A DNA stretch of 64,000 nt from Escherichia coli (GTDB lineage: Bacteria > Pseudomonadota > Gammaproteobacteria > Enterobacterales > Enterobacteriaceae): NCBI RefSeq assembly GCF_048403405.1, contig NZ_CP183129.1; one strand, written 5' to 3'. The position numbers were made by a program, and so were the translations under genes. The notes under the pieces are model-generated. The model ran no database searches, was not told the DNA's origin, and worked only from the letters and a program-made list of their open reading frames with translations. Positions 4,250-61,730 of the stretch are shown here, piece after piece. Positions within the stretch are counted from its first letter, which is position 1. Each line of letters opens with the position of its first letter.

Positions 4250-4314
4250 AGAGAAAACCCCCGCACGTTGAGAGGTAAAACCTGACAACAGAACGGGGGC
4301 TAATCTTGAACCAT
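4250..4314 (-). ncRNA. rdl: Rdl antisense RNA (antitoxin of Ldr), copy 1; ends approximate
   Basis: The reverse complement reads ggttcaagattagcccccgttctgttgtcaggttttacctctcaacgtgcgggggttttctct. This matches the Rdl pattern I remember (UCAAGAUUAGCCCCCG...GUUGUCAGG...CAACGUG.GGGGGUUUUCUCU). It lies antisense in the ldr 5' leader. Confidence 0.6.
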
Positions 4315-4365
4315 CAACAATTCAAGAATAGCCGCAAAATGTTGTCATTACAACAAGGCGGCTAT

Positions 4366-4473
4366 ATGACGCTCGCGCAGTTTGCCATGATTTTCTGGCA
4401 CGACCTGGCAGCACCGATCCTGGCGGGAATTATTACCGCAGCGATTGTCAGCTGGTGGCGTAACCGGAAGTAA
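4366..4473 (+). CDS. ldr: Ldr type I toxin, 35 aa (MTLAQFAMIFWHDLAAPILAGIITAAIVSWWRNRK)
   Basis: Manually translated; too short for the ORF track. Identical in pattern to K-12 LdrA-C peptides. Confidence 0.85.
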   Translation: MTLAQFAMIFWHDLAAPILAGIITAAIVSWWRNRK

Positions 4474-4522
4474 GGTGAAAACGGGCGTCAGGCTGCCGTG
4501 ATGGCAATATGCGCCCGAAACC

Positions 4523-4554
4523 GGCCGCAGGTGTAACAGCCTGCGGCCTTTTTT
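4523..4554 (+). terminator. Intrinsic terminator of ldr copy 1
   Basis: GGCCGCAGG-tgtaacag-CCTGCGGCC followed by TTTTTT. Confidence 0.8.
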
Positions 4555-4785
4555 GTCTTTATCTCTTCCACAAGTAAATATTGGCAACCCGAGCTGGAAG
4601 CATCATCCAGAGCACTCATGAAACGACTGTAACAGCTGTTGAAAAACCGGAATGCACTCTTCATTGCATACATTTCAGGGATGAAGTGAAGATGAATTGA
4701 GTCGTAGTATCCACACCAAGCCGGCGTTATCCGGTGAGGCGCAATGTTGCGGGGGCTCTATCCCTGGTGGCATTGGTTGCTGGAA

Positions 4786-4849
4786 AGAGAAAACCCCCGC
4801 ACGTTGAGAGGTATAACCTGACAACAGAACGGGGGCTAATCTTGAACCA
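4786..4849 (-). ncRNA. rdl: Rdl antisense RNA, copy 2; ends approximate
   Basis: Same sequence block as copy 1, one repeat unit later. Confidence 0.6.
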
Positions 4850-4900
4850 GAACAATTCAAGAATAGCCGCAAAATGTTGTCATTACAACAAGGCGGCTAT

Positions 4901-5008
4901 ATGACGCTCACGCAGTTTGCCATGACTTTCTGGCACGACCTGGCAGCACCGATCCTGGCGGGAATTATTACCGCAGCGATTGTCAGCTGGTGGCGTAACC
5001 GGAAGTAA
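4901..5008 (+). CDS. ldr: Ldr type I toxin, 35 aa (MTLTQFAMTFWHDLAAPILAGIITAAIVSWWRNRK)
   Basis: Manually translated; differs from copy 1 at 2 residues. Confidence 0.85.
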   Translation: MTLTQFAMTFWHDLAAPILAGIITAAIVSWWRNRK

Positions 5009-5057
5009 GGTGAAAACGGGCGTCAGGCTGCCGTGATGGCAATATGCGCCCGAAACC

Positions 5058-5089
5058 GGCCGCAGGAGTAACAGCCTGCGGCCTTTTTT
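5058..5089 (+). terminator. Intrinsic terminator of ldr copy 2
   Basis: GGCCGCAGG-agtaacag-CCTGCGGCC followed by TTTTTT. Confidence 0.8.
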
Positions 5090-5099
5090 GTATCCGGCC

Positions 5100-5815
5100 C
5101 CATGAATAAATATCCTCCGGCATAGCCGGAGGTTTTTCAAATGCGCCTATAAGGCTCTCTTACCAGCCGCGCCCTAACAGGCGCACACGATCTGACATTT
5201 GCATCCAACTTCGTTACTTACGGCCCGTAAACGGGCTGCCCGGATAGGGAATCGATAACTGCTCTCCCATTTTATCCTCTTCAAGCTGGTGCTTTATGTA
5301 ATCCTGTATCTTCGCCGTGTTCTTACCCACCGTATCGACGTAGTACCCTCTGCACCAGAACTCCCTGTTCCTGTATTTGAATTTCAAATCACCAAACTGC
5401 TCGTAAAGCATCAGACTGCTTTTCCCTTTCAGATATCCCATAAAGCCGGATACGCTCATTTTGGGCGGGATCTCCACAAGCATATGGATATGATCTGCAC
5501 AGCATTCAGCTTCCAGAATCCGTACACTTTTCCACTCACACAGCTTTCTCAAAATACTGCCTATTGCTCTACGCTTCTCTCTGTAGAACACCTGTCTTCG
5601 GTATTTTGGCGCAAAAACTATGTGATATTTACAGTTCCATCGGGTGTGCGCTAAGCTCTTTTCGTTCCCCATTGGGACCCCCTTTTGATTTCTTGTTTGA
5701 CACTTGCAGTTGCCAGACCGCAAGGTGTTTTAACAAATCAAAAGGGGTTTTAATAACTGGCTTAAAGCTGAAAGCTTTCCGGAACCCCCAGCCTAGCTGG
5801 GGGTTTTCTGTGCAC
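5100..5815 (-). mobile_element. IS200 (IS200/IS605 family); ends approximate
   Basis: Contains a 152-aa Y1 transposase. Subterminal hairpins sit near both ends (CCTCCGG-catag-CCGGAGG at 5114-5132; CCCCCAGC-cta-GCTGGGGG at 5785-5803). The size of about 0.7 kb is as expected for IS200. Similarity to the preceding LDR unit stops at about 5090. Confidence 0.75.
5214..5672 (-). CDS. tnpA: IS200 transposase TnpA (Y1 HUH)
   Basis: MGNEKSLAHTRWNCKYHIVFAPKYRRQVFY...HIHMLVEIPPK...YIKHQLEEDKMGEQLSIPYPGSPFTGRK is near-identical to the Salmonella IS200 TnpA as I remember it. The track ORF was trimmed to the ATG at 5672. Confidence 0.9.
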   Translation of the reverse strand: MGNEKSLAHTRWNCKYHIVFAPKYRRQVFYREKRRAIGSILRKLCEWKSVRILEAECCADHIHMLVEIPPKMSVSGFMGYLKGKSSLMLYEQFGDLKFKYRNREFWCRGYYVDTVGKNTAKIQDYIKHQLEEDKMGEQLSIPYPGSPFTGRK

Positions 5816-7962: not shown

Positions 7963-8792
7963 TGATAATAGCGGCCGAGCGTTACGCGCTCGTTATCACC
8001 ATAGTCCCGACAGGTTTCGACGTCATGATATCCCGCGTGGATAAATGCCTGTCGCACCGCTTCGCCCTGCTGCCAACCATGTTCCAGAAGCAGAAAGCCG
8101 CCGGATACCAGCGCGTTACGCGACTGTTCGATGATATGCACAATGTCTGCCATTCCACTGTCTGCCGCAACCAGCGCAGTGAGCGGCTCAAAGCGAACAT
8201 CGCCTTGTTGAAGATGTGGGTCCTGCTCGTCAATATACGGCGGATTACTGACAATCATCGCAAACTGCTGCCCGGCTAGCGCGCTAAACCAGTCGCTTTG
8301 CAGAATATGGATGTTTTTGATCGCCAGATTCTGGGCATTACGTTGCGCCAGGGCGACAGCATCGGGCATACGATCTACAGCGGTAATTTCGCAGTCCGGG
8401 CGCTCGCTAGCCAGCGCCAGCGCAATCGCCCCGGTACCCGTCCCGAGATCGAGAATACGGCAAGGTTGTTCAGGCAACCGCGCCAGTGCCTGCTCCACCA
8501 GACACTCCGTATCCGGGCGCGGAATTAAGGTCGCTGGCGAAACAAATAACGGCAACGACCAGAATTCTCGCACCCCGGTTAAATGAGCAATGGGTTCACC
8601 ATCGCGACGACGTGTCAGTAGCGCATCAAGTTGCTGACATTGTTCGTCAGTCAGCTGCGTTTCACCAAAGGCGAGAATAAAAGTACGCCCTCTGCCGGTA
8701 ACATGCTCCAGCAGGATTTCAGCATCACGCCGCGGGCTTTCGCTCGCCTGAAGTTGGCTTATTGCTTCACGTAACCAGTGTTGATATTCCAT
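7959..8792 (-). CDS. prmC: Release-factor glutamine N5-methyltransferase
   Basis: 277 aa, with SAM motif ILDLGTGTGAIAL and NPPY motif (VSNPPYI). The start overlaps the prfA stop. Confidence 0.95.
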   Translation of the reverse strand: MEYQHWLREAISQLQASESPRRDAEILLEHVTGRGRTFILAFGETQLTDEQCQQLDALLTRRRDGEPIAHLTGVREFWSLPLFVSPATLIPRPDTECLVEQALARLPEQPCRILDLGTGTGAIALALASERPDCEITAVDRMPDAVALAQRNAQNLAIKNIHILQSDWFSALAGQQFAMIVSNPPYIDEQDPHLQQGDVRFEPLTALVAADSGMADIVHIIEQSRNALVSGGFLLLEHGWQQGEAVRQAFIHAGYHDVETCRDYGDNERVTLGRYYQ

Positions 8793-9874
8793 TATTCCTG
8801 CTCGGACAACGCCGCCAGTTGGTCGGCCTGATGTTCCTGGATAATCGGTTCAATCAGCATATCCAGCTTACCTTCCATCACTTCATCCAGGCGGTAGAGC
8901 GTCAGGTTGATGCGGTGATCGGTAACGCGCCCCTGCGGGAAGTTGTAAGTACGGTTACGGTCGCTGCGATCGCCACTCCCCAGCAGGTTACGACGGGTAG
9001 ACGCTTCGGCCTGTTGCCGTTTTGCCATTTCTGCAGCGTGGATGCGAGCACCGAGTACAGAAAGTGCTTTAGCTTTGTTTTTATGTTGTGAACGTTCGTC
9101 CTGACATTCAACAACAATCCCAGTCGGCAAGTGAGTAATACGAATTGCCGAATCGGTGGTGTTAACGTGCTGACCACCCGCCCCTGACGAGCGGAAAGTA
9201 TCAATGCGTAAATCTGCCGGGTTGATGTCCGGCAGTTCTGCGTCAGGCAGTTCTGGCATTACCGCAACGGTACAAGCAGAAGTATGAATACGCCCCTGCG
9301 ATTCCGTAGCAGGAACACGTTGCACGCGATGACCGCCAGATTCGAATTTCAAACGACCATATACACCATCACCGCTAATTTTGGCGATGATCTCTTTATA
9401 GCCACCATGTTCACCCTCGCTGGCGCTCATGATTTCTACACGCCAGCGGCGGGCTTCGGCGTAACGGCTGTACATACGGAACAGATCGCCAGCGAAGAGC
9501 GCCGCTTCGTCGCCGCCGGTTCCGGCACGGACTTCGAGGAAGGCGTTACGTTCGTCATCAGGATCTTTTGGTAGTAACAGAACCTGTAATTGCTGTTCCA
9601 GTTGCTCGCTTTTTTCTTTAGCTTCGCGCAGTTCATCCTGCGCCATCTCACGCATTTCAGGATCGTCGAGCATCATCTGTGCGGTTTCGATATCTTCCTG
9701 AACCTGTTGCCAGTCGGTAAAACAGCGCGAAACATCACTTAACTGCGCATATTCGCGTGATAATGCGCGAAAACGTTCCTGGTCGGCGATAGTTTGCGCG
9801 TCACCCAGCAACGCCTGAACTTCTTCATGGCGTTCATGCAGGGCTTCCAGTTTGGCAACGATAGAAGGCTTCAT
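8792..9874 (-). CDS. prfA: Peptide chain release factor 1
   Basis: 360 aa, with GGQ motif ([15 protein letters not shown]) and PAT tripeptide ([10 protein letters not shown]). Confidence 0.97.
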
Positions 9875-16095: not shown

Positions 16096-16372
16096 ATGTC
16101 ACCTCCGGAACTTTCTGGGTTGTAACAGGGAATACCCCTCTTCCTTATGTGTAAAGTATAGACAACACCCTGTGGGTTATGTGCGGGCGTGATCACAATT
16201 ACAACCCTTATTTCAACAAAACTTTACAAATAAACGCCTGAACACCTTGACTTTCTAATAGTCCACTCAGGCAATTATTGCGTTATCTGCATTTGATACG
16301 CAGTTTTTTGTCAAGCGGGGCCGCAACCAGTAAACTACGCGCCAGTTATGTACACACTCAGGACAAAAAAAC

Positions 16373-16957
16373 GTGACGATTAAATTGATTGTCGGCCTGG
16401 CGAACCCCGGCGCTGAATACGCCGCAACGCGACATAATGCTGGTGCCTGGTTCGTTGACTTACTGGCAGAGCGATTGCGCGCTCCGCTGCGCGAAGAGGC
16501 TAAATTCTTTGGTTATACTTCGCGAGTCACCCTTGGAGGCGAAGATGTCCGCCTGTTAGTCCCGACTACATTTATGAATCTCAGCGGCAAAGCCGTTGCG
16601 GCGATGGCCAGTTTTTTCCGCATTAATCCGGACGAAATTCTGGTGGCCCACGACGAACTGGATCTGCCTCCTGGCGTCGCCAAATTTAAGTTGGGCGGTG
16701 GCCATGGTGGTCACAATGGACTGAAAGACATCATCAGTAAATTGGGTAATAACCCTAACTTTCACCGTTTACGCATCGGAATCGGTCATCCGGGCGATAA
16801 AAATAAAGTTGTTGGTTTTGTATTAGGCAAACCGCCTGTTAGTGAACAGAAGTTAATTGATGAAGCCATCGACGAAGCGGCGCGTTGTACTGAAATGTGG
16901 TTTACAGATGGCTTGACCAAAGCAACGAACCGATTGCACGCCTTTAAAGCGCAATAA
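16373..16957 (+). CDS. pth: Peptidyl-tRNA hydrolase
   Basis: 194 aa with a GTG start, (M)[26 protein letters not shown]... Confidence 0.95.
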
Positions 16958-17073
16958 GTCGTTGTCTGCGGCATTTTTGCCGAGTGCCGTGTATAATAGG
17001 CAAAGTTATTTCCATTTCTGCAATCTGTTAGCAATAACAGGTTGATTATTAAGATATTAAGGTGATTTAAATC

Positions 17074-18165
17074 ATGGGATTCAAATGCGGTATCGTCGGT
17101 TTGCCCAACGTCGGGAAATCTACCCTGTTCAACGCGCTGACCAAAGCCGGTATTGAAGCGGCCAACTTTCCATTCTGCACCATCGAGCCGAACACAGGCG
17201 TCGTACCAATGCCTGACCCTCGCCTGGATCAACTGGCTGAAATCGTAAAACCGCAGCGTACGCTTCCCACGACCATGGAATTTGTCGATATCGCCGGTCT
17301 GGTAAAAGGCGCATCGAAAGGCGAAGGTCTGGGTAACCAGTTCCTGACCAACATCCGTGAAACCGAAGCGATCGGTCACGTTGTTCGCTGCTTTGAAAAT
17401 GACAACATCATTCACGTTTCCGGCAAAGTTAACCCGGCTGATGATATTGAAGTTATCAACACCGAACTGGCGCTGGCGGACCTCGACACCTGCGAACGTG
17501 CGATTCATCGCGTACAGAAGAAAGCCAAAGGTGGCGATAAAGACGCGAAAGCTGAGCTGGCGGTCCTGGAAAAATGCCTGCCCCAGCTGGAAAACGCAGG
17601 TATGCTGCGCGCGCTGGATTTAAGCGCTGAAGAGAAAGCGGCTATTCGTTACCTGAGCTTCCTGACGCTGAAACCAACAATGTACATCGCCAACGTCAAC
17701 GAAGACGGTTTTGAAAACAACCCGTATCTTGACCAGGTGCGTGAAATCGCGGCGAAAGAAGGTTCTGTTGTGGTTCCGGTTTGTGCTGCTGTTGAAGCAG
17801 ACATTGCCGAACTGGACGACGAAGAACGTGACGAGTTTATGCAGGAGCTTGGGCTGGAAGAGCCGGGCCTGAACCGTGTGATCCGTGCCGGTTATAAGCT
17901 GCTGAACCTGCAAACTTACTTCACCGCTGGGGTGAAAGAAGTACGTGCATGGACCATTCCGGTTGGTGCAACCGCGCCGCAGGCCGCTGGCAAAATCCAT
18001 ACTGATTTTGAAAAAGGCTTTATCCGTGCACAAACTATTTCGTTCGAAGATTTCATCACTTACAAAGGTGAACAAGGCGCGAAAGAAGCAGGCAAAATGC
18101 GTGCAGAAGGCAAAGATTACATCGTTAAAGATGGCGATGTAATGAACTTCCTGTTCAATGTCTAA
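17074..18165 (+). CDS. ychF: Ribosome-binding ATPase YchF (Obg-like)
   Basis: 363 aa, with P-loop GLPNVGKST. Confidence 0.95.
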
Positions 18166-56184: not shown

Positions 56185-56442
56185 TTATTTCCCGGTGTGA
56201 GGTTCTTCTTTATATTTATGGGCTAACAAATCTGGTAATTGCCTGTATTTATCCTCGGCAATATATTCAGAATAATCGACAGCACTGTTCAGTATATCTA
56301 ACGCCGTTTCATGCTCCAGATTCGAAACTATAAGGAACGTTGCTACTTTTAGCATATTCGCGATATGCAAAAGAGCATCAATTTCATTTTTTGGCGCTTC
56401 ACTGAATTTTTGCTCCAGAAGAATAAATCGTTCATCACGCAT
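56185..56442 (-). CDS. Hypothetical 85-aa acidic protein
   Basis: ORF track entry. Overlaps the stop of the upstream icd-like gene by 8 nt and ends 2 nt before the start of the downstream 100-aa gene; AT-rich. Confidence 0.5.
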   Translation of the reverse strand: MRDERFILLEQKFSEAPKNEIDALLHIANMLKVATFLIVSNLEHETALDILNSAVDYSEYIAEDKYRQLPDLLAHKYKEEPHTGK

Positions 56443-56638
56443 AGTATTCCCCCTGACGGATGCGGGCAGTAAATACCATCACGCAGCCAGCCGGGGATTG
56501 CTGACGGGCTTCCTGTTCGCTGGCGGCCTCGATGTGTATTACGCGTGGTTGTGCGGTGCTCAGGGCGATAAAACGCCAGATGTATTTATTCAGGTTGTGC
56601 GAGTCCCGCCCTTGCGGGTGTGTGGTATGATTTAACAT
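56435..56638 (-). CDS. Icd-like (P4-type host cell-division inhibitor-like) 67-aa protein
   Basis: Only the last 67 codons of the 345-aa track ORF are used, from the ATG at 56638 preceded by GAGG. YIWRFIALSTAQPRVIHIEAASEQEARQQ...VMVFTARI resembles Icd-like proteins of P4-like elements, from memory. Confidence 0.5.
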   Translation of the reverse strand: MLNHTTHPQGRDSHNLNKYIWRFIALSTAQPRVIHIEAASEQEARQQSPAGCVMVFTARIRQGEYYA

Positions 56639-56736
56639 AGCTACCTCGATACGCTTTCTATCGTTGGTGGTTAGACGCCCTGCATGTGTTGCGAGCACTG
56701 CGGGGCGTTGCTTAATTTGAGCAATGCAACCCAAAC

Positions 56737-56816
56737 TGTGCGCACAGATTAAAATCATGTGTGCGCACATGTCAATACTTAACTTCTCACTTTTTTTGCT
56801 GTATTGTGTGCGCCCA
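56737..56816. promoter_or_regulatory. Three copies of the palindrome TGTGCGCACA in the divergent region between the icd-like and RHH genes (candidate operators O1-O3)
   Basis: Perfect copies at 56737-56746 and 56760-56769; a 9/10 copy (TGTGCGCCCA) at 56807-56816. Confidence 0.6.
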
Positions 56817-56843
56817 TCAAATCCATTTAAGTGAGGTGTACCA

Positions 56844-57041
56844 ATGTCTAGCGGAAACACAAACAACAAATCAGCAAAGAAAAATATTCGATTCCCGCAC
56901 GAGCTTATAGATGGGATTGATGCCAGTGTTGAACAAGAAAAATTAACTAATCCTAGTGCTAATTTTTCCGCATGGGTCTTAGATGCCTGTGGACGCAAAT
57001 TAAAATATGAACAGCGCCGGAAGGCCAAAGAGCAGGAGTAA
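56844..57041 (+). CDS. Ribbon-helix-helix-type small DNA-binding protein (candidate element repressor)
   Basis: 65 aa with RBS GAGGTG 5 nt upstream. KKNIRFPHELIDGIDASVEQ... is a typical RHH N-terminal strand and helix. It is one of only two plus-strand genes in the element. Confidence 0.55.
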   Translation: MSSGNTNNKSAKKNIRFPHELIDGIDASVEQEKLTNPSANFSAWVLDACGRKLKYEQRRKAKEQE

Positions 57042-57098
57042 CCATCACCAGCGCCGTGGTGCGGTGAACTGTGGCGCACAGGGTTACAGGTATCTACG

Positions 57099-57296
57099 AT
57101 GACTGACAAATCATTAAAGAAATTATCCTCATCCAGGAAAAAACAACGCAAAAATGCGGTAAGCGAACAAGAACAGGAAAGATTTGCGCCATGTGCGTTT
57201 GTCCTTGAGAAGTTCTTAAAAGAGTACAGGCGCACAAAAATGGGATCGCATACCTGGAAAACATCGCAGTATGGCGATGCTAAAGAGCAGGAATAG
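57099..57296 (+). CDS. Hypothetical 65-aa basic protein
   Basis: ORF track entry with a weak RBS. It shares its last 17-19 nt (AAAGAGCAGGAxTAxCC, peptide ...AKEQE) with the preceding gene. Confidence 0.35.
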   Translation: MTDKSLKKLSSSRKKQRKNAVSEQEQERFAPCAFVLEKFLKEYRRTKMGSHTWKTSQYGDAKEQE

Positions 57297-57386
57297 CCCA
57301 CCAGCAAGCCAGCACACTGATCACATTGCCCACCAGCCGCAAATCTGGCATTGTTGGCGATGCGTTTGATTTCCTTTGTTCCCACT

Positions 57387-57415
57387 GGCGACCTATCCCG
57401 GTCGCCTTTGTTTTG
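57387..57415 (+). terminator. Terminator of the plus-strand RHH transcription unit
   Basis: GGCGACC-tatccc-GGTCGCC followed by TTTGTTTTG. Confidence 0.75.
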
Positions 57416-57464
57416 CCTGTTATCCAGCAACGGGGCGCTTTTTCTTTCTGTAACGTTCGGATCG

Positions 57465-58208
57465 TTACGCATGGCTGCTCACCTCCATGCGGCGGGCTAA
57501 CCAGCGTTGCGAAAGACGAATTAATTCAGCTTTCCGCTGGTGGTAGTCCTGGCCTAACTCAATCAGCGTGATATTGCTCTGCTCAAGGTAAGAAAGGTGC
57601 TCAAGCTGCAGCGTGCTCATGTGGTCGCGTGGTTCGCCTGTGATGCCGTTCGCCTGCGCCCACTGTTTTGCAGTCATGCCACCCAGCACGATACGCGCCA
57701 GCATATTGGCTTCCGTGGTGTAGTGGTGCTGGAGCGTGTTTTTACCCAGTTCAGCGCGGTACGCCTCCAGCGCGGCACACATCGGCTTAAAGTAGCTGGC
57801 AACGGTGATACGGGCTTTCAGTTCACGGCGTAACGCTGCGGAACGCACTGGCGCTACTTTGTGTAGCTCCTCCTCGCATTTGATGAAGTACTGACGAATA
57901 GCGCGGCCCTGTTCGGTACGCTCGACCATCGCAAGTTCTTTCGCCATGTTGATGGTACTCAGGTAGTCGTGCTCTACACGTTGGCGAGATTTTGCGCTCA
58001 CCGGATTGGGGGAGGTCAAATTTTCTACAAACTCAAAATCCACGCCATTTTTAAATCCGTACTGATCAATACGCCCTTTAATCCATGTAGTGAAATCACG
58101 CTTCACACCAAGCGCCTTATGTAACGCTCTGGCGCTGACAATGGCTGTTTCATGTCCGCCAATAATGCCAGGTGATACCGGAATAAGTGCGGCGAAATCC
58201 TTAAGCAT
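57465..58208 (-). CDS. AntA/AntB-type phage antirepressor-domain protein
   Basis: 247 aa. ...VSARALHKALGVKRDFTTWIKGRIDQYGFKNGVDFEF...INMAKELAMVERTEQGRAIRQYFI... matches the AntA N-terminal domain pattern, from memory. Confidence 0.6.
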   Translation of the reverse strand: MLKDFAALIPVSPGIIGGHETAIVSARALHKALGVKRDFTTWIKGRIDQYGFKNGVDFEFVENLTSPNPVSAKSRQRVEHDYLSTINMAKELAMVERTEQGRAIRQYFIKCEEELHKVAPVRSAALRRELKARITVASYFKPMCAALEAYRAELGKNTLQHHYTTEANMLARIVLGGMTAKQWAQANGITGEPRDHMSTLQLEHLSYLEQSNITLIELGQDYHQRKAELIRLSQRWLARRMEVSSHA

Positions 58209-59663: not shown

Positions 59664-60314
59664 TTAGTCGAGATCGTGGACAGCTAATAAAGCCCGTGAG
59701 ATTTTTTCTAGGAATGTGGCTTTTGCTATTCCTTTATGGGATATCCCTTCATCCTTGATTAAGGTTTCTATGTCACGGTATATAGCTGTGCGATTAGGTT
59801 TCCCATTTTGGATGTAGGAAGATGAGCCTGATTTTTTTATCAGCAGATGTACTATCAACCCCATCATTTTCATTGTCCCGTTTTCCTCATCCTGCTTTCT
59901 ATGCTGCCCACGTCCGCTGCGGTTGGTTTCTTTGATGTAGTTTACTAACTGGAGTCCTCCAAGGTTTCGGGCTTTTTCTTCCCAGCCCTTGGTGCCACGC
60001 AAATCATCAATCGCTTCTGATATTTTCTGAACAATTATTTCTGGTGTATTTGTGTCAATAAATGGGTAAGAAGCTAAGAAAATATCAAGGGCATGGCAAG
60101 GCTCGTCTTTACTAGTTTTTTCACCTCTGTACACCTTGATAGCTCTGGCAAGATGAGTTCTGACAAAATCGACATATTCGAAATTTTCCTCAGGCACATC
60201 GCTAATGCGCATAGATGGGTTTAGGCCAGCCAAGGCCACAGCCATTTCATGAGGGGTAATCGATACAGATGAACAAAGCCGTTCGATTGGCGATTTTCTC
60301 AAGATGTTGTTCAC
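59664..60314 (-). CDS. Hypothetical 216-aa protein, translationally coupled to the integrase
   Basis: The GTG start overlaps the int stop (atGTGA). More AT-rich than int. No motif recognised, though a helix-turn-helix near the C-terminus is possible. Confidence 0.55.
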   Translation of the reverse strand: MNNILRKSPIERLCSSVSITPHEMAVALAGLNPSMRISDVPEENFEYVDFVRTHLARAIKVYRGEKTSKDEPCHALDIFLASYPFIDTNTPEIIVQKISEAIDDLRGTKGWEEKARNLGGLQLVNYIKETNRSGRGQHRKQDEENGTMKMMGLIVHLLIKKSGSSSYIQNGKPNRTAIYRDIETLIKDEGISHKGIAKATFLEKISRALLAVHDLD

Positions 60315-61579
60315 ATTTGCCTCCGGGCTTTATCGAATGGCGTTACGTTGTAGTCTTTCCCGCTTTCCAGTGCCACCAGCAGATCAGCCCACTGTGCCAG
60401 CGCAGCTTTACGCTCATCAAAATACTGATGGCGGTTATAAATCCCCTCCACACCCTTAATGCGATGATTGAGGCATCGTTCCGCTACGACAGGATCAACA
60501 CCCAATGCTGCTAAATGAGTACGTGCGGTACGCCGGAAGTCGTGAATCGTGAAATTAGGCACATCCGGCATTTCGGCGCGAACCTTAGCCAGTGCTACGG
60601 GTAAAGTGCTTTCCTGAATATGTGGGATCATTCTGTTTTGCATCTTCCTGGCTGGAAGCACCCATGCGCTATTACATGAAAAGGTGTGTAGCTCTCTCAA
60701 CCATTCAACGGCAGGAGAAGGTAGAGGTATATCAATAGGGTCTCCGTTTTTGCTGCGTTCTTCCGGCAAATGCCATACCGCACCATCTAAATCAAACTCT
60801 TCCCATCGTGCGGCGCATAACTCCATCTTACGAACGCATAGTGCCAGCAATAGCTTAAATGTCAGTTCGTTCTGGCGGCTGAATCCTTTTGCGGTGCGCA
60901 TAGCCTCGAATAGCCTGATAAGCTCATCGCGAGTTAGCCAACGGTCGCGGGAAACCTCTTTACCACCAGCATCAGATACTTCAAACGCTGAACAAGGGTT
61001 TATCTCCAGAGCGTGGCGTTTTATCCCATAGTCAAAGATACGGCGTGTCCAGCGTAATACATCTGTTGCTATCGTTGGTGCTCCTCGGTCAACGATACCT
61101 TTCAACATGTCGTCAATGTGGCGTGGCTTAACGTCCTCTACCTTCATATGCCCAATGCAGGGGTTAATATCCTTATCAATTCTCCGGCGAAGGATATCGG
61201 GATGTTTCCATCTCGGAAGTATCTGTCGCTCGAAGTATTCGGCGGCCAGATCTGAAACGCGCATGGCGTTTTTCTCAGCCTCCATTTTTGCCAGTGCTTC
61301 AGCTTTTCGTTCCTGTTTTTCTGCTGCTACGTCATAGCCAAGAGCAACTCTGGCTGACAGCTCTTTTGCTATTTCTCTGGCTTTTGATAGTGACAGTTCG
61401 GAGTAAGAGCCGATAACCATAGCCCGCTGTTTTCCTGCGAGCTTATATCGGAATCGCCAGAACGGGACTGTGTAGTTTTTGGGGTAGCAAATATAAAGGC
61501 CGTTGCCGTCTGCCTTGCCATCAAATCTGTCTCCCGCCTTTATCCATGCGCGGATCTGCATATCTGTGAGTTTTGGCAT
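60311..61579 (-). CDS. int: P4-type tyrosine integrase
   Basis: Trimmed to the ATG at 61579 (MPKLTDMQIRAWIKAGDRFDGKADGNGLYICYP...FWRFRYKLAGKQR...), giving 422 aa. The C-terminal catalytic region includes ...HDFRRTARTHLAALG...ERCLNH...GIYNRHQY. Confidence 0.9.
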   Translation of the reverse strand: MPKLTDMQIRAWIKAGDRFDGKADGNGLYICYPKNYTVPFWRFRYKLAGKQRAMVIGSYSELSLSKAREIAKELSARVALGYDVAAEKQERKAEALAKMEAEKNAMRVSDLAAEYFERQILPRWKHPDILRRRIDKDINPCIGHMKVEDVKPRHIDDMLKGIVDRGAPTIATDVLRWTRRIFDYGIKRHALEINPCSAFEVSDAGGKEVSRDRWLTRDELIRLFEAMRTAKGFSRQNELTFKLLLALCVRKMELCAARWEEFDLDGAVWHLPEERSKNGDPIDIPLPSPAVEWLRELHTFSCNSAWVLPARKMQNRMIPHIQESTLPVALAKVRAEMPDVPNFTIHDFRRTARTHLAALGVDPVVAERCLNHRIKGVEGIYNRHQYFDERKAALAQWADLLVALESGKDYNVTPFDKARRQM

Positions 61580-61636
61580 TGCGAATACCTGAATATCGAA
61601 TATGGGTGTGTACATAAAGCAATGTACATGAAAGTC

Positions 61637-61660
61637 ATTATGTACACCTCTATGTACACG
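61637..61660 (+). repeat. attR-like direct repeat, within a cluster of four TGTACA motifs (61606-61660)
   Basis: ATTATGTACACCTCTATGTACACG matches 22 of 24 positions of 42824-42847. It is preceded by gtgTGTACAtaaagcaaTGTACAtg. Confidence 0.75.
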
Positions 61661-61701
61661 CATATTGTGCGCTTTGTTGCGTCGTTATGATAGCTCATGA
61701 T

Positions 61702-61730
61702 AACAAAAAAGCCCGACATTTCGCGGGCTT
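61702..61730 (-). terminator. Intrinsic terminator (minus strand)
   Basis: The minus strand reads AAGCCCG-cgaaatgt-CGGGCTT followed by TTTTTTGT. Confidence 0.7.

What the first reader, a model, noticed from the sequence alone, without database searches (positions are those of the whole stretch)
56639..57464. Candidate immunity switch: three TGTGCGCACA palindromes between a divergent RHH gene and the icd-primase operon, with convergent transcription against alpA-rha-antA
Seen in the sequence:
- All element genes are on the minus strand except two 65-aa ORFs (56844-57041, 57099-57296).
- These two ORFs form a plus-strand unit ending at a good terminator (57387-57415), about 50 bp before the antA stop, so it converges on the alpA-rha-antA operon.
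- The 205-bp divergent region between the icd-like start (56638) and the first plus-strand gene holds the 10-bp perfect palindrome TGTGCGCACA twice (56737, 56760) and a 9/10 copy at 56807.
- The first plus-strand protein has a good RBS and an RHH-like N-terminus (NIRFPHELIDGIDASV).
- The two plus-strand ORFs end with the same 17-19-nt block (AAAGAGCAGGAxTAxCC at 57027 and 57282), and CCCACCAGC recurs at about 57296 and 57329.

Inference: this is a repressor/operator switch controlling the replication operon, functionally analogous to the P4 immunity region or SaPI Stl but built differently. The 345-aa minus-strand ORF in the track covering this region is probably an artefact.
Basis: partly seen in the sequence, partly recalled or inferred. 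Interest (0 to 1): 0.5.

Follow-up and report, generated by a model that had tools for sequence, protein, structure and literature searches.

The report
Satellite immunity switch inside antisense ORF
A phage-parasitising island in E. coli carries a small repressor gene with three matching DNA sites that most likely keep the island's replication genes off. This cassette lies backwards inside a long reading frame that evolution keeps open, probably so that the induced transcript can be translated straight through it.

Summary
TGTGCGCACA occurs exactly twice in the 64-kb window and once more at 9/10, all within 80 bp between divergent genes.

The element is an EcCIMP1-like Gram-negative PICI. The first plus-strand ORF belongs to the uncharacterised YlcI/YnfO (DUF3950) family, and its model resembles ribbon-helix-helix (RHH) proteins.

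In 38 related loci from many genera the same layout recurs. O2 lies in the spacer of the leftward promoter. O1 lies at its -10/+1. O3 lies on the -10/+1 of the repressor's own promoter. The 6-bp operator core differs between elements and changes together with YlcI residues 11-14 (Spearman 0.68; 0 of 2000 permutations), not with the rest of the protein, Icd or the primase. A repressor/operator immunity cassette is therefore strongly supported in silico.

That frame stays open across the whole cassette in 23 of 33 loci, starts at the upstream gene's stop behind a Shine-Dalgarno sequence, and ends in the Icd/Kil-like domain. This is the architecture of P4 eta/kil. P4 and EcCIMP1 carry CI(C4)/isrK RNAs at this position; this element carries the RHH cassette instead.

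Verdict: new variant of a known kind. Nothing here is tested experimentally.

The parts
56736..56747 (.). Operator O1, CTGTGCGCACAG (perfect 12-bp palindrome). It overlaps the end of the -10 and the predicted +1 of the leftward promoter.
   Evidence: The same position is held by the locus-specific operator in 30+ related loci.
56759..56770 (.). Operator O2, GTGTGCGCACAT. It fills the -35/-10 spacer of the leftward promoter, 23 bp centre-to-centre from O1.
   Evidence: It directly abuts the conserved GTCAA motif.
56806..56817 (.). Operator O3, GTGTGCGCCCAT (9/10 core). It overlaps the -10/+1 of the repressor's own promoter, suggesting autoregulation.
   Evidence: The same 9/10 variant is kept in E. 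coli locus L037. Perfect copies occur at this position in Klebsiella and Rahnella.
56746..56775 (-). Predicted leftward promoter P_icd (counterpart of P4 PLE): -35 TTGACA (56775-56770), 18-nt spacer, -10 TAATCT (56751-56746); alternatively 16 nt then TTTAAT.
   Evidence: Read from the sequence. The TTGAC hexamer is the most conserved motif of the intergenic region across loci. The tool's consensus scan did not list it. Inference only.
56779..56807 (+). Predicted rightward promoter P_ylcI: -35 TTAACT (56779-56784), 17 nt, -10 TATTGT (56802-56807). It stands back-to-back with P_icd.
   Evidence: Read from the sequence. A TAT(A/G/T)GT hexamer abuts O3 in most loci. Inference only.
56844..57041 (+). 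ylcI-like gene: 65-aa YlcI/YnfO (DUF3950) protein, predicted ribbon-helix-helix repressor. Residues 11-14 (AKKN) are the proposed recognition residues.
57099..57296 (+). ORF2: 65-aa basic protein of unknown function. It is co-transcribed with ylcI and found only in Escherichia.
   Evidence: phrog_21027. 44 homologue clusters, all E. coli or E. albertii. Omega 0.25-0.33 and frame-preserving indels. No hit in the 35 loci from other species.
57387..57415 (+). Intrinsic terminator of the ylcI-ORF2 unit. It is one-directional: on the minus strand the same hairpin has no U tract.
   Evidence: Homologous or analogous strong plus-strand terminators lie downstream of ylcI in more than 20 related loci.
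56435..56638 (-). Icd-like gene (67 aa), counterpart of P4 kil. It is the first gene of the replication operon.
   Evidence: NF033153 E 3.5e-19. The C-terminus of the P4 eta/kil ORF hits the same model at E 7.8e-21. A 67-aa form is annotated in L037 and L040.
56435..57472 (-). Eta-like long ORF (345 aa). It runs antisense through terminator, ORF2, ylcI, promoters, operators and leader, and ends as the Icd-like protein. The ATG at 57472 overlaps the antA stop (57465-57467).
   Evidence: No Pfam domain in the N-terminal 278 aa.
57479..57486 (-). Shine-Dalgarno GGAGGTGA, 6 nt upstream of the ATG of the long ORF.
   Evidence: upstream 18 nt GCATGGAGGTGAGCAGCC. GGAGG/GAGG-type motifs stand before the corresponding ATG in most related loci.
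56647..56708 (-). Structured 5' leader of the icd operon. Hairpin 1 is 56675-56708. A conserved single-stranded CUAACCA follows. Hairpin 2 is 56647-56663, just before the SD and ATG.
   Evidence: 85.8% of cells paired against 30-41% in slid controls; 11 pairs with compensatory changes; 0 of 500 shuffles reach the observed score.
57024..57043 (+). 3' end of ylcI (AAAGAGCAGGAGTAA). It is repeated at the 3' end of ORF2 (57279-57298) and is conserved where the RHH body is swapped, so it is a likely module junction.

Best explanation
The region is the immunity switch of an EcCIMP1-like Gram-negative phage-inducible chromosomal island. It is built on the P4 eta/kil plan but uses a protein repressor where P4 uses an RNA.

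1. **Resting state.** The 65-aa YlcI/YnfO-family protein is a ribbon-helix-helix repressor made from its own weak promoter. Dimers bind three 12-bp sites of the form G-TG-N6-CA-C. O2 lies in the spacer and O1 at the -10/+1 of the leftward promoter P_icd. Together they shut off the toxic Icd/Kil-like gene and the primase/replication operon. O3, on the -10/+1 of P_ylcI, gives autoregulation. The ylcI-ORF2 transcript stops at a one-directional terminator about 50 bp before antA.

2. **Specificity.** The 6-bp operator core is read by the N-terminal strand (residues 11-14). Cassettes of 'operators plus RHH body' are exchanged between islands, giving many immunity types.

3. **Induced state.** The helper phage turns on the AlpA-dependent upstream promoter. 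That transcript runs alpA-rha-antA and continues, antisense, through the cassette into icd-primase. It is protected from Rho-dependent termination because a long eta-like ORF, translationally coupled to antA, is translated across the whole gap. Convergent transcription and the antisense RNA also lower YlcI synthesis, which derepresses P_icd.

**Shown by sequence and comparison:** the parts, their conservation, the operator/residue covariation, the cassette exchange, the conserved open frame and its coupling signals, and the family link of Icd-like to P4 Kil.

**Inferred:** DNA binding, the promoter assignments, Rho dependence and the order of events.
For: **The operator cluster is non-random.**

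**Same layout in relatives.** O1, then 23 bp, then O2-GTCAA, a T-run, a -10 and O3 recur in loci L002-L042 from Serratia, Klebsiella, Rahnella, Pectobacterium, Xenorhabdus, Morganella, Proteus, Brenneria, a Pasteurellaceae isolate and Gilliamella. The operator sequences are locus-specific.

**Covariation.**
- Operator distance against YlcI residues 11-14 gives Spearman 0.68, with 0 of 2000 Mantel permutations as high.
- Against the rest of the protein the correlation is -0.06.
- Pairs with the same tetrapeptide differ by 0.1-0.85 operator positions in every divergence bin. Pairs with different tetrapeptides differ by 3.4-4.0.

**Natural swaps.**
- L037 and L040 share 97.6% identity over 1155 bp of primase end, DUF4222, a hypothetical gene and icd, yet have different operators and different RHH bodies.
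- L037 and the window share operators and ylcI at 94-98% but have unrelated primase flanks.

**The long ORF is not chance.**
- There are 0 stops in frame 0 in 23 of 33 loci, against 6-25 in the other frames.
- The first ATG lies within -9 to +11 nt of the upstream gene's stop in most of the loci where the frame is open, behind GGAGG-like motifs.
- The null probability P(0 stops) is 3e-4 overall and 6.5e-4 for the non-coding parts alone.

**P4 parallel.**
- The P4 ORF at 8168-8812 combines Phage_ASH with the Icd-like model NF033153.
- C4 and isrK RNAs lie inside it in P4 and at the same place in the experimentally verified PICI EcCIMP1.
- Neither RNA is present in the window.
- Translation of eta prevents termination of the late transcript (Forti et al. 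1999, as summarised in PMC10111431).

**AlpA.** It is the helper-induced activator of Gram-negative PICIs (PMC6092414; PMC11773190).

**Transcription signals.** The terminator acts on the plus strand only, and no convincing minus-strand terminator lies between alpA and icd.
Against: - No experimental datum exists for binding, transcript ends or translation.
- The tool's sigma-70 scan did not call either promoter. Both -10 hexamers are weak, and the best leftward one needs an 18-nt spacer or a T at position 2.
- Operator and ylcI are adjacent, so some correlation would arise from linkage alone. The control against the rest of the same small gene answers this only in part.
- In 8 of 33 loci no minus-strand frame is open, among them the Rahnella and Klebsiella loci with the same operator type. 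In two more, L011 and L012, a different frame is open.
- The N-terminal 278 aa of the long ORF has no domain and looks like antisense junk, so a product with a function of its own is unlikely.
- The family namesakes ylcI/ynfO and the lambda copy lie next to cos/terminase without this layout. Repression of a replication operon therefore cannot be the function of the family everywhere.
Confidence: 0.68

Rival explanations
1. ylcI-ORF2 is a type II toxin-antitoxin pair (RHH antitoxin plus small toxin). It stabilises the island and autoregulates through the palindromes. Control of the replication operon would be incidental.
Against: ORF2 matches nothing in Pfam, NCBIfam, PADLOC or PDB sequences. 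It is confined to Escherichia, whereas ylcI and the operators are conserved across orders. In other genera the second ORF is absent or unrelated. Two of the three operators sit on the divergent promoter, not on ylcI's own. A 57-nt gap separates the two genes.
Confidence: 0.07
2. The palindromes are sites for another island protein: AlpA, Rha/AntA, the Icd-like protein, or the primase as origin iterons. On this view YlcI does not bind them.
For: P4 ori and crr carry short repeats bound by the alpha primase (annotation). AlpA is the known activator of Gram-negative PICI genes. PHROGs labels the Icd-like family 'transcriptional repressor'; this label probably comes from the old P4 'cI' ORF annotation, an ORF that overlaps kil.
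Against: Operator type follows YlcI residues 11-14 and nothing else. Identical icd and primase flanks carry different operators (L037 vs L040). Unrelated primases carry identical operators (L037 vs the window). Loci without a tblastn-detectable Icd homologue, or without AntA or Rha, keep the same layout. No further operator copy lies anywhere in the island.
Confidence: 0.06
3. Only the 345-aa minus-strand ORF is a real gene, and the two plus-strand ORFs are gene-caller artefacts. This is how record LR881103 is annotated for a related element.
For: The long ORF is conserved as an open frame with an SD and coupling signals. In LR881103 a 324-aa minus-strand CDS is annotated and ylcI is not.
Against: ylcI shows strong purifying selection in its own frame. 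Its family also occurs outside this context, in lambda and Stx phages. Its model resembles RHH proteins. The long ORF has no domain and no conserved sequence beyond what ylcI imposes. Its antisense frame over the coding parts is stop-free almost for free (P = 0.46).
Confidence: 0.04
4. The RHH repressor/operator switch is real, but the long open frame has no function of its own. It would be a relic of an ancestral eta gene or a side effect of composition.
For: 8 of 33 loci have no open minus-strand frame. The coding parts need no selection to stay open. In EcCIMP1 the long ORF is not in frame with Icd-like.
Against: The non-coding segments are unalignable between cassette types yet stay stop-free. 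The distance from the leftward ATG to the ylcI ATG varies from 178 to 217 nt but is congruent to 1 mod 3 in nearly all loci. The start codons sit on the upstream stop, behind SD motifs.
Confidence: 0.15

Closest known systems
Bacteriophage P4 immunity region (vis - eta/kil - cI RNA - PLE/PLL)
   Same: - Same position in the element: after the AlpA/Vis homologue and Bro-type genes, before the primase operon.
- The first gene after the internal promoter is a ~65-aa Kil/Icd-like protein of the same NCBIfam family.
- That gene is the tail of a longer ORF which starts upstream of the promoter and is coupled to the upstream gene.
- In P4, translation of that ORF lets the late transcript escape termination (Forti et al. 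1999).
   Different: - P4 immunity is an RNA (CI/C4 plus seqA/isrK) that causes premature termination. Those RNAs are absent here.
- Here the determinant is a protein repressor with operators acting on initiation. [quoted passage not shown]
- The Ash domain of Eta is missing.
EcCIMP1 and other Gram-negative PICIs (Fillol-Salom 2018; Pick 2025)
   Same: Same gene plan: int, AlpA, AntA-type gene, Icd-like, DUF4222, DUF927/TOPRIM primase, ejection-protein and SLT genes, PerC. AlpA is the helper-induced activator.
   Different: EcCIMP1 has the Ash/C4/isrK immunity type and no ylcI. [quoted passage not shown] No searchable paper assigns a role to YlcI/YnfO.
P22 immI (Arc and Mnt ribbon-helix-helix repressors, ant, sar antisense RNA)
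   Same: Small RHH repressors bind operators over closely spaced divergent promoters next to an antirepressor gene, and antisense transcription is part of the control (own knowledge).
   Different: Arc and Mnt control ant, not a replication operon. They show no detectable sequence relation to YlcI. There is no nested long ORF.
SaPI Stl / Rpr master repressors of Gram-positive PICIs
   Same: Functional analogy: an island-encoded repressor holds the replication module silent until a helper phage is active, and it exists in many specificity types.
   Different: Rpr (Stl in the SaPIs) lies next to int, is transcribed in the same direction as int, and is relieved by direct binding of a helper protein. 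Stl is a larger helix-turn-helix protein (own knowledge). Here the gene is a 65-aa RHH lying between the Bro zone and the replication zone, and relief is proposed to come from read-through transcription.
Immunity-region mosaics of lambdoid phages (imm434, imm21 and others)
   Same: Repressor and cognate operators are exchanged as one cassette between otherwise near-identical genomes, which gives heteroimmune types (own knowledge; compare).
   Different: The repressor has a different fold (RHH rather than HTH) and the cassette is much smaller, about 300 bp. The junctions fall in an RNA leader and in the last 10 codons of the repressor gene.

Membership tests
YlcI/YnfO family (NCBIfam NF041551; Pfam DUF3950 PF13132) | Score above the curated cut-off of the family models | tested here: met
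   NF041551: 59 bits against a cut-off of 30. PF13132: 28.3 bits against 25. PGAP gives the same name in NZ_CP148435.
Ribbon-helix-helix (Arc/MetJ/CopG) DNA-binding proteins | Strand-helix-helix fold | tested here: inconclusive
Ribbon-helix-helix (Arc/MetJ/CopG) DNA-binding proteins | Dimer whose paired N-terminal strands read the major groove of repeated operators | not testable with these tools
   Indirect support only: the operator core covaries with residues 11-14 in the predicted strand.
P4-type eta/kil immunity architecture | A Kil/Icd-like small gene is the first gene after the internal promoter | tested here: met
   The window protein and the C-terminus of the P4 ORF both match NF033153, at E 3.5e-19 and 7.8e-21. 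Direct BLASTP between them is not significant (E 0.17).
P4-type eta/kil immunity architecture | That gene is the terminal part of a longer ORF beginning upstream of the promoter and coupled to the upstream gene | tested here: met
   The ORF spans 56435-57472. Its ATG overlaps the antA stop and follows the SD GGAGGTGA. The arrangement is conserved in 23 of 33 loci.
P4-type eta/kil immunity architecture | CI (Rfam C4) immunity RNA and seqA (isrK) target inside eta | tested here: not met
   No C4 or isrK hit in the window at the gathering threshold or at E up to 10. Both are found in P4 and EcCIMP1 with the same search.
P4-type eta/kil immunity architecture | Ash-family domain in the N-terminal part of Eta | tested here: not met
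   P4 Eta matches PF10554 at E 4.5e-23. The window's 345-aa ORF matches no Pfam family.
P4-type eta/kil immunity architecture | Translation of the long ORF suppresses Rho-dependent termination of the late transcript | not testable with these tools
   Inferred from conservation of the open frame and from the P4 precedent.
Gram-negative PICI | int - alpA - (Bro zone) - primase/replication - late zone, about 10-20 kb, without a full set of phage structural and lysis genes | tested here: met
   The gene plan is close to that of the verified PICI EcCIMP1.
Gram-negative PICI | Excision, replication and packaging induced by a helper phage | not testable with these tools
   Shown for EcCIMP1 and EcCICFT073 in the literature, not for this element.
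Type II toxin-antitoxin module | A conserved partner toxin of a known toxin family directly downstream of the antitoxin | tested here: not met
   ORF2 has no family or PDB match and is absent outside Escherichia.

The most novel reading that the evidence does not exclude
YlcI/YnfO proteins are the missing master repressors of a large class of Gram-negative PICIs. They come in a dozen or more immunity types set by three or four residues.

The repressor cassette is encoded backwards inside a 'spacer' ORF. The only selected property of that ORF is to be translated, so that the helper-induced, AlpA-driven transcript escapes Rho and overrides immunity while silencing the repressor by convergent transcription.

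This would be a case where natural selection maintains a roughly 280-codon reading frame for the act of translation rather than for its product, on the strand opposite to a functional gene.
Probability: 0.4. Interest if true: 0.8.

Novelty: new variant of a known kind. Interest (0 to 1): 0.66.

Why it matters
1. **A concrete repressor candidate for Gram-negative PICIs.** Whether these islands have a global repressor was left open when they were described (PMC6092414). Here there is a candidate protein, its three sites and a residue-to-base code that can be tested by swapping four residues.

2. **A function for an uncharacterised family.** YlcI/YnfO (DUF3950) includes two E. coli K-12 y-genes and an unannotated ORF of phage lambda. 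This work gives the family a first testable function.

3. **Exchangeable immunity modules.** The P4-type RNA immunity module and a protein immunity module occupy the same slot of the eta/kil scaffold.

4. **Independent support for the P4 model.** The long frame survives replacement of its Ash domain by antisense genes. This is natural evidence for the old P4 result that translation, not the Eta protein, is what matters for read-through.

5. **Annotation.** Pipelines currently call an over-long Icd-like protein, or a 324-345-aa hypothetical protein, or miss ylcI altogether.

Tried and rejected
- **Foldseek against PDB** with the YlcI model gave no usable hit. **phmmer against PDB sequences** gave nothing significant.
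- **Rfam** at the gathering threshold and at E up to 10 gave no C4 or isrK match. The only weak hit in the leader was the R1162 antisense RNA at E 6.8, taken as chance.
- **ORF2** found nothing in PADLOC, Pfam, NCBIfam or PDB.
- **tblastn of the Icd-like protein** against the phage collection found only vB_KppS-Ant, not P4. The link to P4 Kil came only through the shared HMM.
- **De novo k-mer search for operators** was noisy. It was replaced by positional extraction anchored on GTCAA.
- **An O1-like 11-mer** with a 1-nt insertion at 57070-57080 was considered as a fourth operator. It was rejected because L037, which has the same operator type, lacks it.
- **The PGAP 111-aa Icd-like start at 56770** was rejected. 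It lies inside O2 and the promoter, and relatives are annotated at 67 aa.
- **Forti et al. 1999 (PMC94026)** could not be retrieved. Its content is cited through PMC10111431 and from memory.
- **Cross-talk with the lambda YlcI homologue** was looked at briefly. No comparable operator layout was seen upstream of the lambda ORF, and this was not pursued.
Full report
**1. The observation**

TGTGCGCACA is exact at 56737 and 56760 and 9/10 at 56807. These are the only exact copies in the window. The window-wide count of near-matches is ordinary. The clustering is not. In 300 Markov simulations of the window a 10-bp palindrome recurred within 205 bp in 2.3% of windows, and a pair plus a third near-copy never occurred. 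The two 65-aa plus-strand ORFs, the terminator at 57387-57415 and the repeated 3' blocks are all present.

**2. What the element is**

- int, a hypothetical gene, an HTH (AlpA) gene, Rha and AntA;
- then YlcI/YnfO and a hypothetical gene on the other strand;
- then Icd-like, a hypothetical gene, DUF4222, a DUF927 primase, SSB, ProQ/FinO and PerC;
- then an SLT transglycosylase and three large or unknown proteins.

Pfam, PHROGs and NCBIfam agree with this annotation. The plan is that of EcCIMP1, an experimentally verified PICI mobilised by phage Kapi1 (PMC11773190; its annotation).

**3. The first plus-strand gene**

It is a YlcI/YnfO (DUF3950) family member. No paper in the searchable library gives this family a function.

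It is a real gene. Homologues from many Enterobacterales are 60-80% identical. Against them the non-synonymous difference is 0.17-0.25 while synonymous sites are saturated.

**4. The operators**

I fetched 35 loci encoding relatives from other species, five E. coli variants and one induced cf-PICI. Many have the same neighbourhood: an Icd-like gene and a primase divergently upstream, and AntA, Rha or AlpA converging downstream.

The region upstream of ylcI has one architecture throughout:
- a 12-bp site O1;
- 23 bp further on, a second site O2 that directly abuts GTCAA;
- a T-run;
- a TAT(A/G/T)GT hexamer;
- a third site O3.

The sites have the form G-TG-N6-CA-C. The 6-bp core is the same within a locus and differs between loci: TGCGCA here, and CA(C/T)A(A/T)A, (T/C)TTAAA, T(G/A)CACC, CACCCC and TGTAGA elsewhere.

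Read on the minus strand, GTCAA is the -35 TTGAC(A/G) of a leftward promoter. O2 fills its spacer and O1 covers the end of the -10 and the start site. O3 covers the -10/+1 of a rightward promoter (TTAACT, 17 nt, TATTGT) that stands back-to-back with the first. These promoter assignments are my reading of the sequence. The consensus scan listed neither.

**5. Who binds them**

The operator core changes together with residues 11-14 of YlcI, just before the invariant I-R-F-P, where an RHH strand would lie:
- AKKN goes with TGCGCA in Escherichia, Klebsiella and Rahnella.
- TTKG goes with CA(C/T)A(A/T)A in Serratia, Brenneria, Pectobacterium, Xenorhabdus, Arsenophonus and a Pasteurellaceae isolate.
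- xYKG goes with (T/C)TTAAA in Pectobacterium, Xenorhabdus and Morganella.

Over 561 locus pairs, operator distance correlates with tetrapeptide distance (Spearman 0.68; 0 of 2000 permutations as high). It does not correlate with divergence of the rest of the protein (-0.06). The contrast holds in every divergence bin.

Natural recombinants point the same way:
- L037 and L040 are 97.6% identical over 1155 bp of primase end, DUF4222, a hypothetical gene and icd, but have unalignable operators and RHH bodies.
- L037 and the window share operators and ylcI at 94-98% but have unrelated primase flanks.

The operators therefore travel with ylcI, not with Icd, the primase or AntA. The exchanged cassette is bounded by the RNA leader on one side and by the last ~10 codons of ylcI (RRKAKEQE) on the other.

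**6. ORF2**

ORF2 is probably a real gene. It matches phrog_21027 and has 44 homologue clusters. Omega is 0.25-0.33, its indels preserve the frame, and the core RFAPCAFxLEKFLKE is conserved. It occurs only in Escherichia and matches no known family or structure.

Other genera have no second gene, or an unrelated one, before a strong plus-strand terminator. ORF2 is an accessory gene of the unit, not a conserved part of the switch.

**7. The 345-aa minus-strand ORF**

- *The frame is open in most relatives.* In frame with the first leftward gene, it runs open for 245-467 codons, back to the end of the upstream leftward gene, in 23 of 33 loci. The other two minus-strand frames carry 6-25 stops in the same ~500 bp. 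Two further loci have an open frame in another register.
- *The spacing is constrained.* The distance between the leftward ATG and the ylcI ATG varies from 178 to 217 nt but is congruent to 1 mod 3 in nearly all loci.
- *The start looks coupled.* The first ATG lies within about 10 nt of the upstream gene's stop in most of the loci where the frame is open, behind GGAGG-like motifs. In the window this is GGAGGTGA, 6 nt, then an ATG that overlaps the antA stop.
- *Chance does not explain it.* Keeping the YlcI and ORF2 amino-acid sequences, the antisense frame over the coding parts is stop-free 46% of the time. The non-coding 435 nt would be stop-free only 6.5e-4 of the time.
- *The product looks meaningless.* The N-terminal 278 aa has no domain and is not alignable between cassette types.

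What is conserved is openness, not sequence.

**8. The P4 precedent**

P4 kil (65 aa, the first gene after the constitutive promoter PLE) is the terminal part of a longer ORF, eta. Eta begins upstream of PLE, is coupled to the alpA homologue vis, and is translated only from the late promoter. Its translation prevents termination, so the late transcript reads through. This is from Forti et al. 1999 as summarised in PMC10111431. The original paper could not be retrieved.

I confirmed the following:
- The P4 ORF at 8168-8812 is Ash-family plus Icd-like. It hits the same NCBIfam model as the window protein.
- C4 (CI) and isrK (seqA) RNAs lie inside it in P4 and at the equivalent place in EcCIMP1.
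- The window has neither RNA.

The RHH cassette thus occupies the slot that holds the RNA immunity module in P4 and EcCIMP1, and the reading frame has been kept open through it.

**9. Other parts**

The leader of the icd operon (56647-56708, minus strand) forms two hairpins separated by a conserved CUAACCA. Covariation supports them: 85.8% of cells are paired against 30-41% in slid controls, 11 pairs show compensatory changes, and 0 of 500 shuffles reach the observed score. Its role is unknown.

The terminator of the plus-strand unit works in one direction only. On the minus strand the hairpin is followed by AGUGGGAAC. No convincing minus-strand terminator lies between alpA and icd.

**10. Mechanism proposed**

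- *At rest:* YlcI dimers on O1 and O2 block P_icd, and O3 gives autoregulation. The toxic Icd/Kil-like gene and the replication genes stay silent.
- *On helper induction:* AlpA-dependent transcription runs alpA-rha-antA and on through the cassette. Translation of the eta-like ORF protects it from Rho. This expresses icd-primase regardless of the repressor and opposes ylcI expression by convergent transcription and antisense RNA.
- *Status:* the first half rests on strong comparative evidence. The second half is inference from the conserved frame and the P4 precedent.

**11. Novelty**

RHH repressor/operator switches and the eta/kil device are each known. I found no description of three things:
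- their combination, with the repressor gene nested antisense in the translated ORF;
- a role for YlcI/YnfO;
- a candidate master repressor for a class of Gram-negative PICIs.

The founding PICI paper left the repressor question open. Later papers list YlcI/YnfO only as an accessory 'prophage-associated protein'. Subscription-journal literature could not be searched, so prior description cannot be excluded.

Noticed in passing
L041 (phage lambda J02459) 48112-48303, minus strand: Lambda carries an unannotated 64-aa YlcI/YnfO-family ORF (MSTKNRTRRTTTRNIRFPNQMIEQ...), 43% identical to the window protein, about 200 bp from the right cos end. 153 lambdoid and Stx phage records have a homologue. 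No operator layout like the PICI one was seen upstream. Helpers of these PICIs therefore carry a paralogue of the proposed PICI repressor.
   Followed up: partly
window 56647-56708 (minus strand): The 5' leader of the icd-primase operon is a conserved two-hairpin RNA with compensatory changes across genera and an invariant CUAACCA linker. It matches no Rfam family. The island also encodes a ProQ/FinO-family RNA-binding protein (52590-53087). A link between the two is pure speculation.
   Followed up: partly
window 44091-51523 (minus strand): The late zone of the island encodes an 873-aa SLT-domain protein plus 565-, 850- and 186-aa proteins with no Pfam hit. They are arranged like the 'DNA ejection protein / lytic transglycosylase' genes of EcCIMP1, which resemble genes of its helper phage Kapi1.
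   Followed up: partly
L001 (NZ_CP148435) and L042 (LR881103): Public annotations of this region disagree. PGAP calls a 111-aa Icd-like protein that starts inside operator O2. LR881103 calls a 324-aa minus-strand hypothetical protein and misses ylcI. Other genomes call the 67-aa Icd-like protein plus ylcI.
   Followed up: yes
window 60311-63109 versus L001: In the window the island lies next to dadX, with an unidentified 578-aa gene (39026-40762) beyond the LRR-containing and 162-aa ORFs on the other side. The 99.9% identical regulatory module in NZ_CP148435 sits in an island between dinD and yicC. The same cassette is thus carried by islands at different chromosomal sites. The integrases were not compared.
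   Followed up: no
L044 (EcCIMP1) 16141-17208, minus strand: In EcCIMP1 a 355-aa ORF also starts on the stop of the upstream DUF4222 gene and spans the Ash/C4/isrK region. It is not in frame with the Icd-like gene, and PGAP calls the Ash part a pseudogene.
   Followed up: partly
related loci L002-L042, downstream of ylcI: The second plus-strand ORF is variable: absent, or 65-113 aa and unrelated to ORF2. Two recurring terminator types close the unit: GGCGGCC...GCCGC + TTTGTTTT and AAGGGTAGCATTCGCCGTGCTATCCTT + TTCTTTTT.
   Followed up: partly
window 57070-57080: CTGTGGCGCACAG, a copy of O1 with a one-base insertion, lies in the ylcI-ORF2 spacer. It is not conserved in L037, which has the same operator type, so it is probably not functional.
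   Followed up: yes
window 41412-43260 (plus strand): A 448-aa ORF with leucine-rich repeats and an adjacent 162-aa ORF with no family lie just beyond the last island gene. They may be cargo or a separate islet.
   Followed up: no
window 4252-5805 (minus strand): Two rdlD antitoxin RNAs and the STnc490 sRNA lie in the chromosomal part of the window.
   Followed up: no
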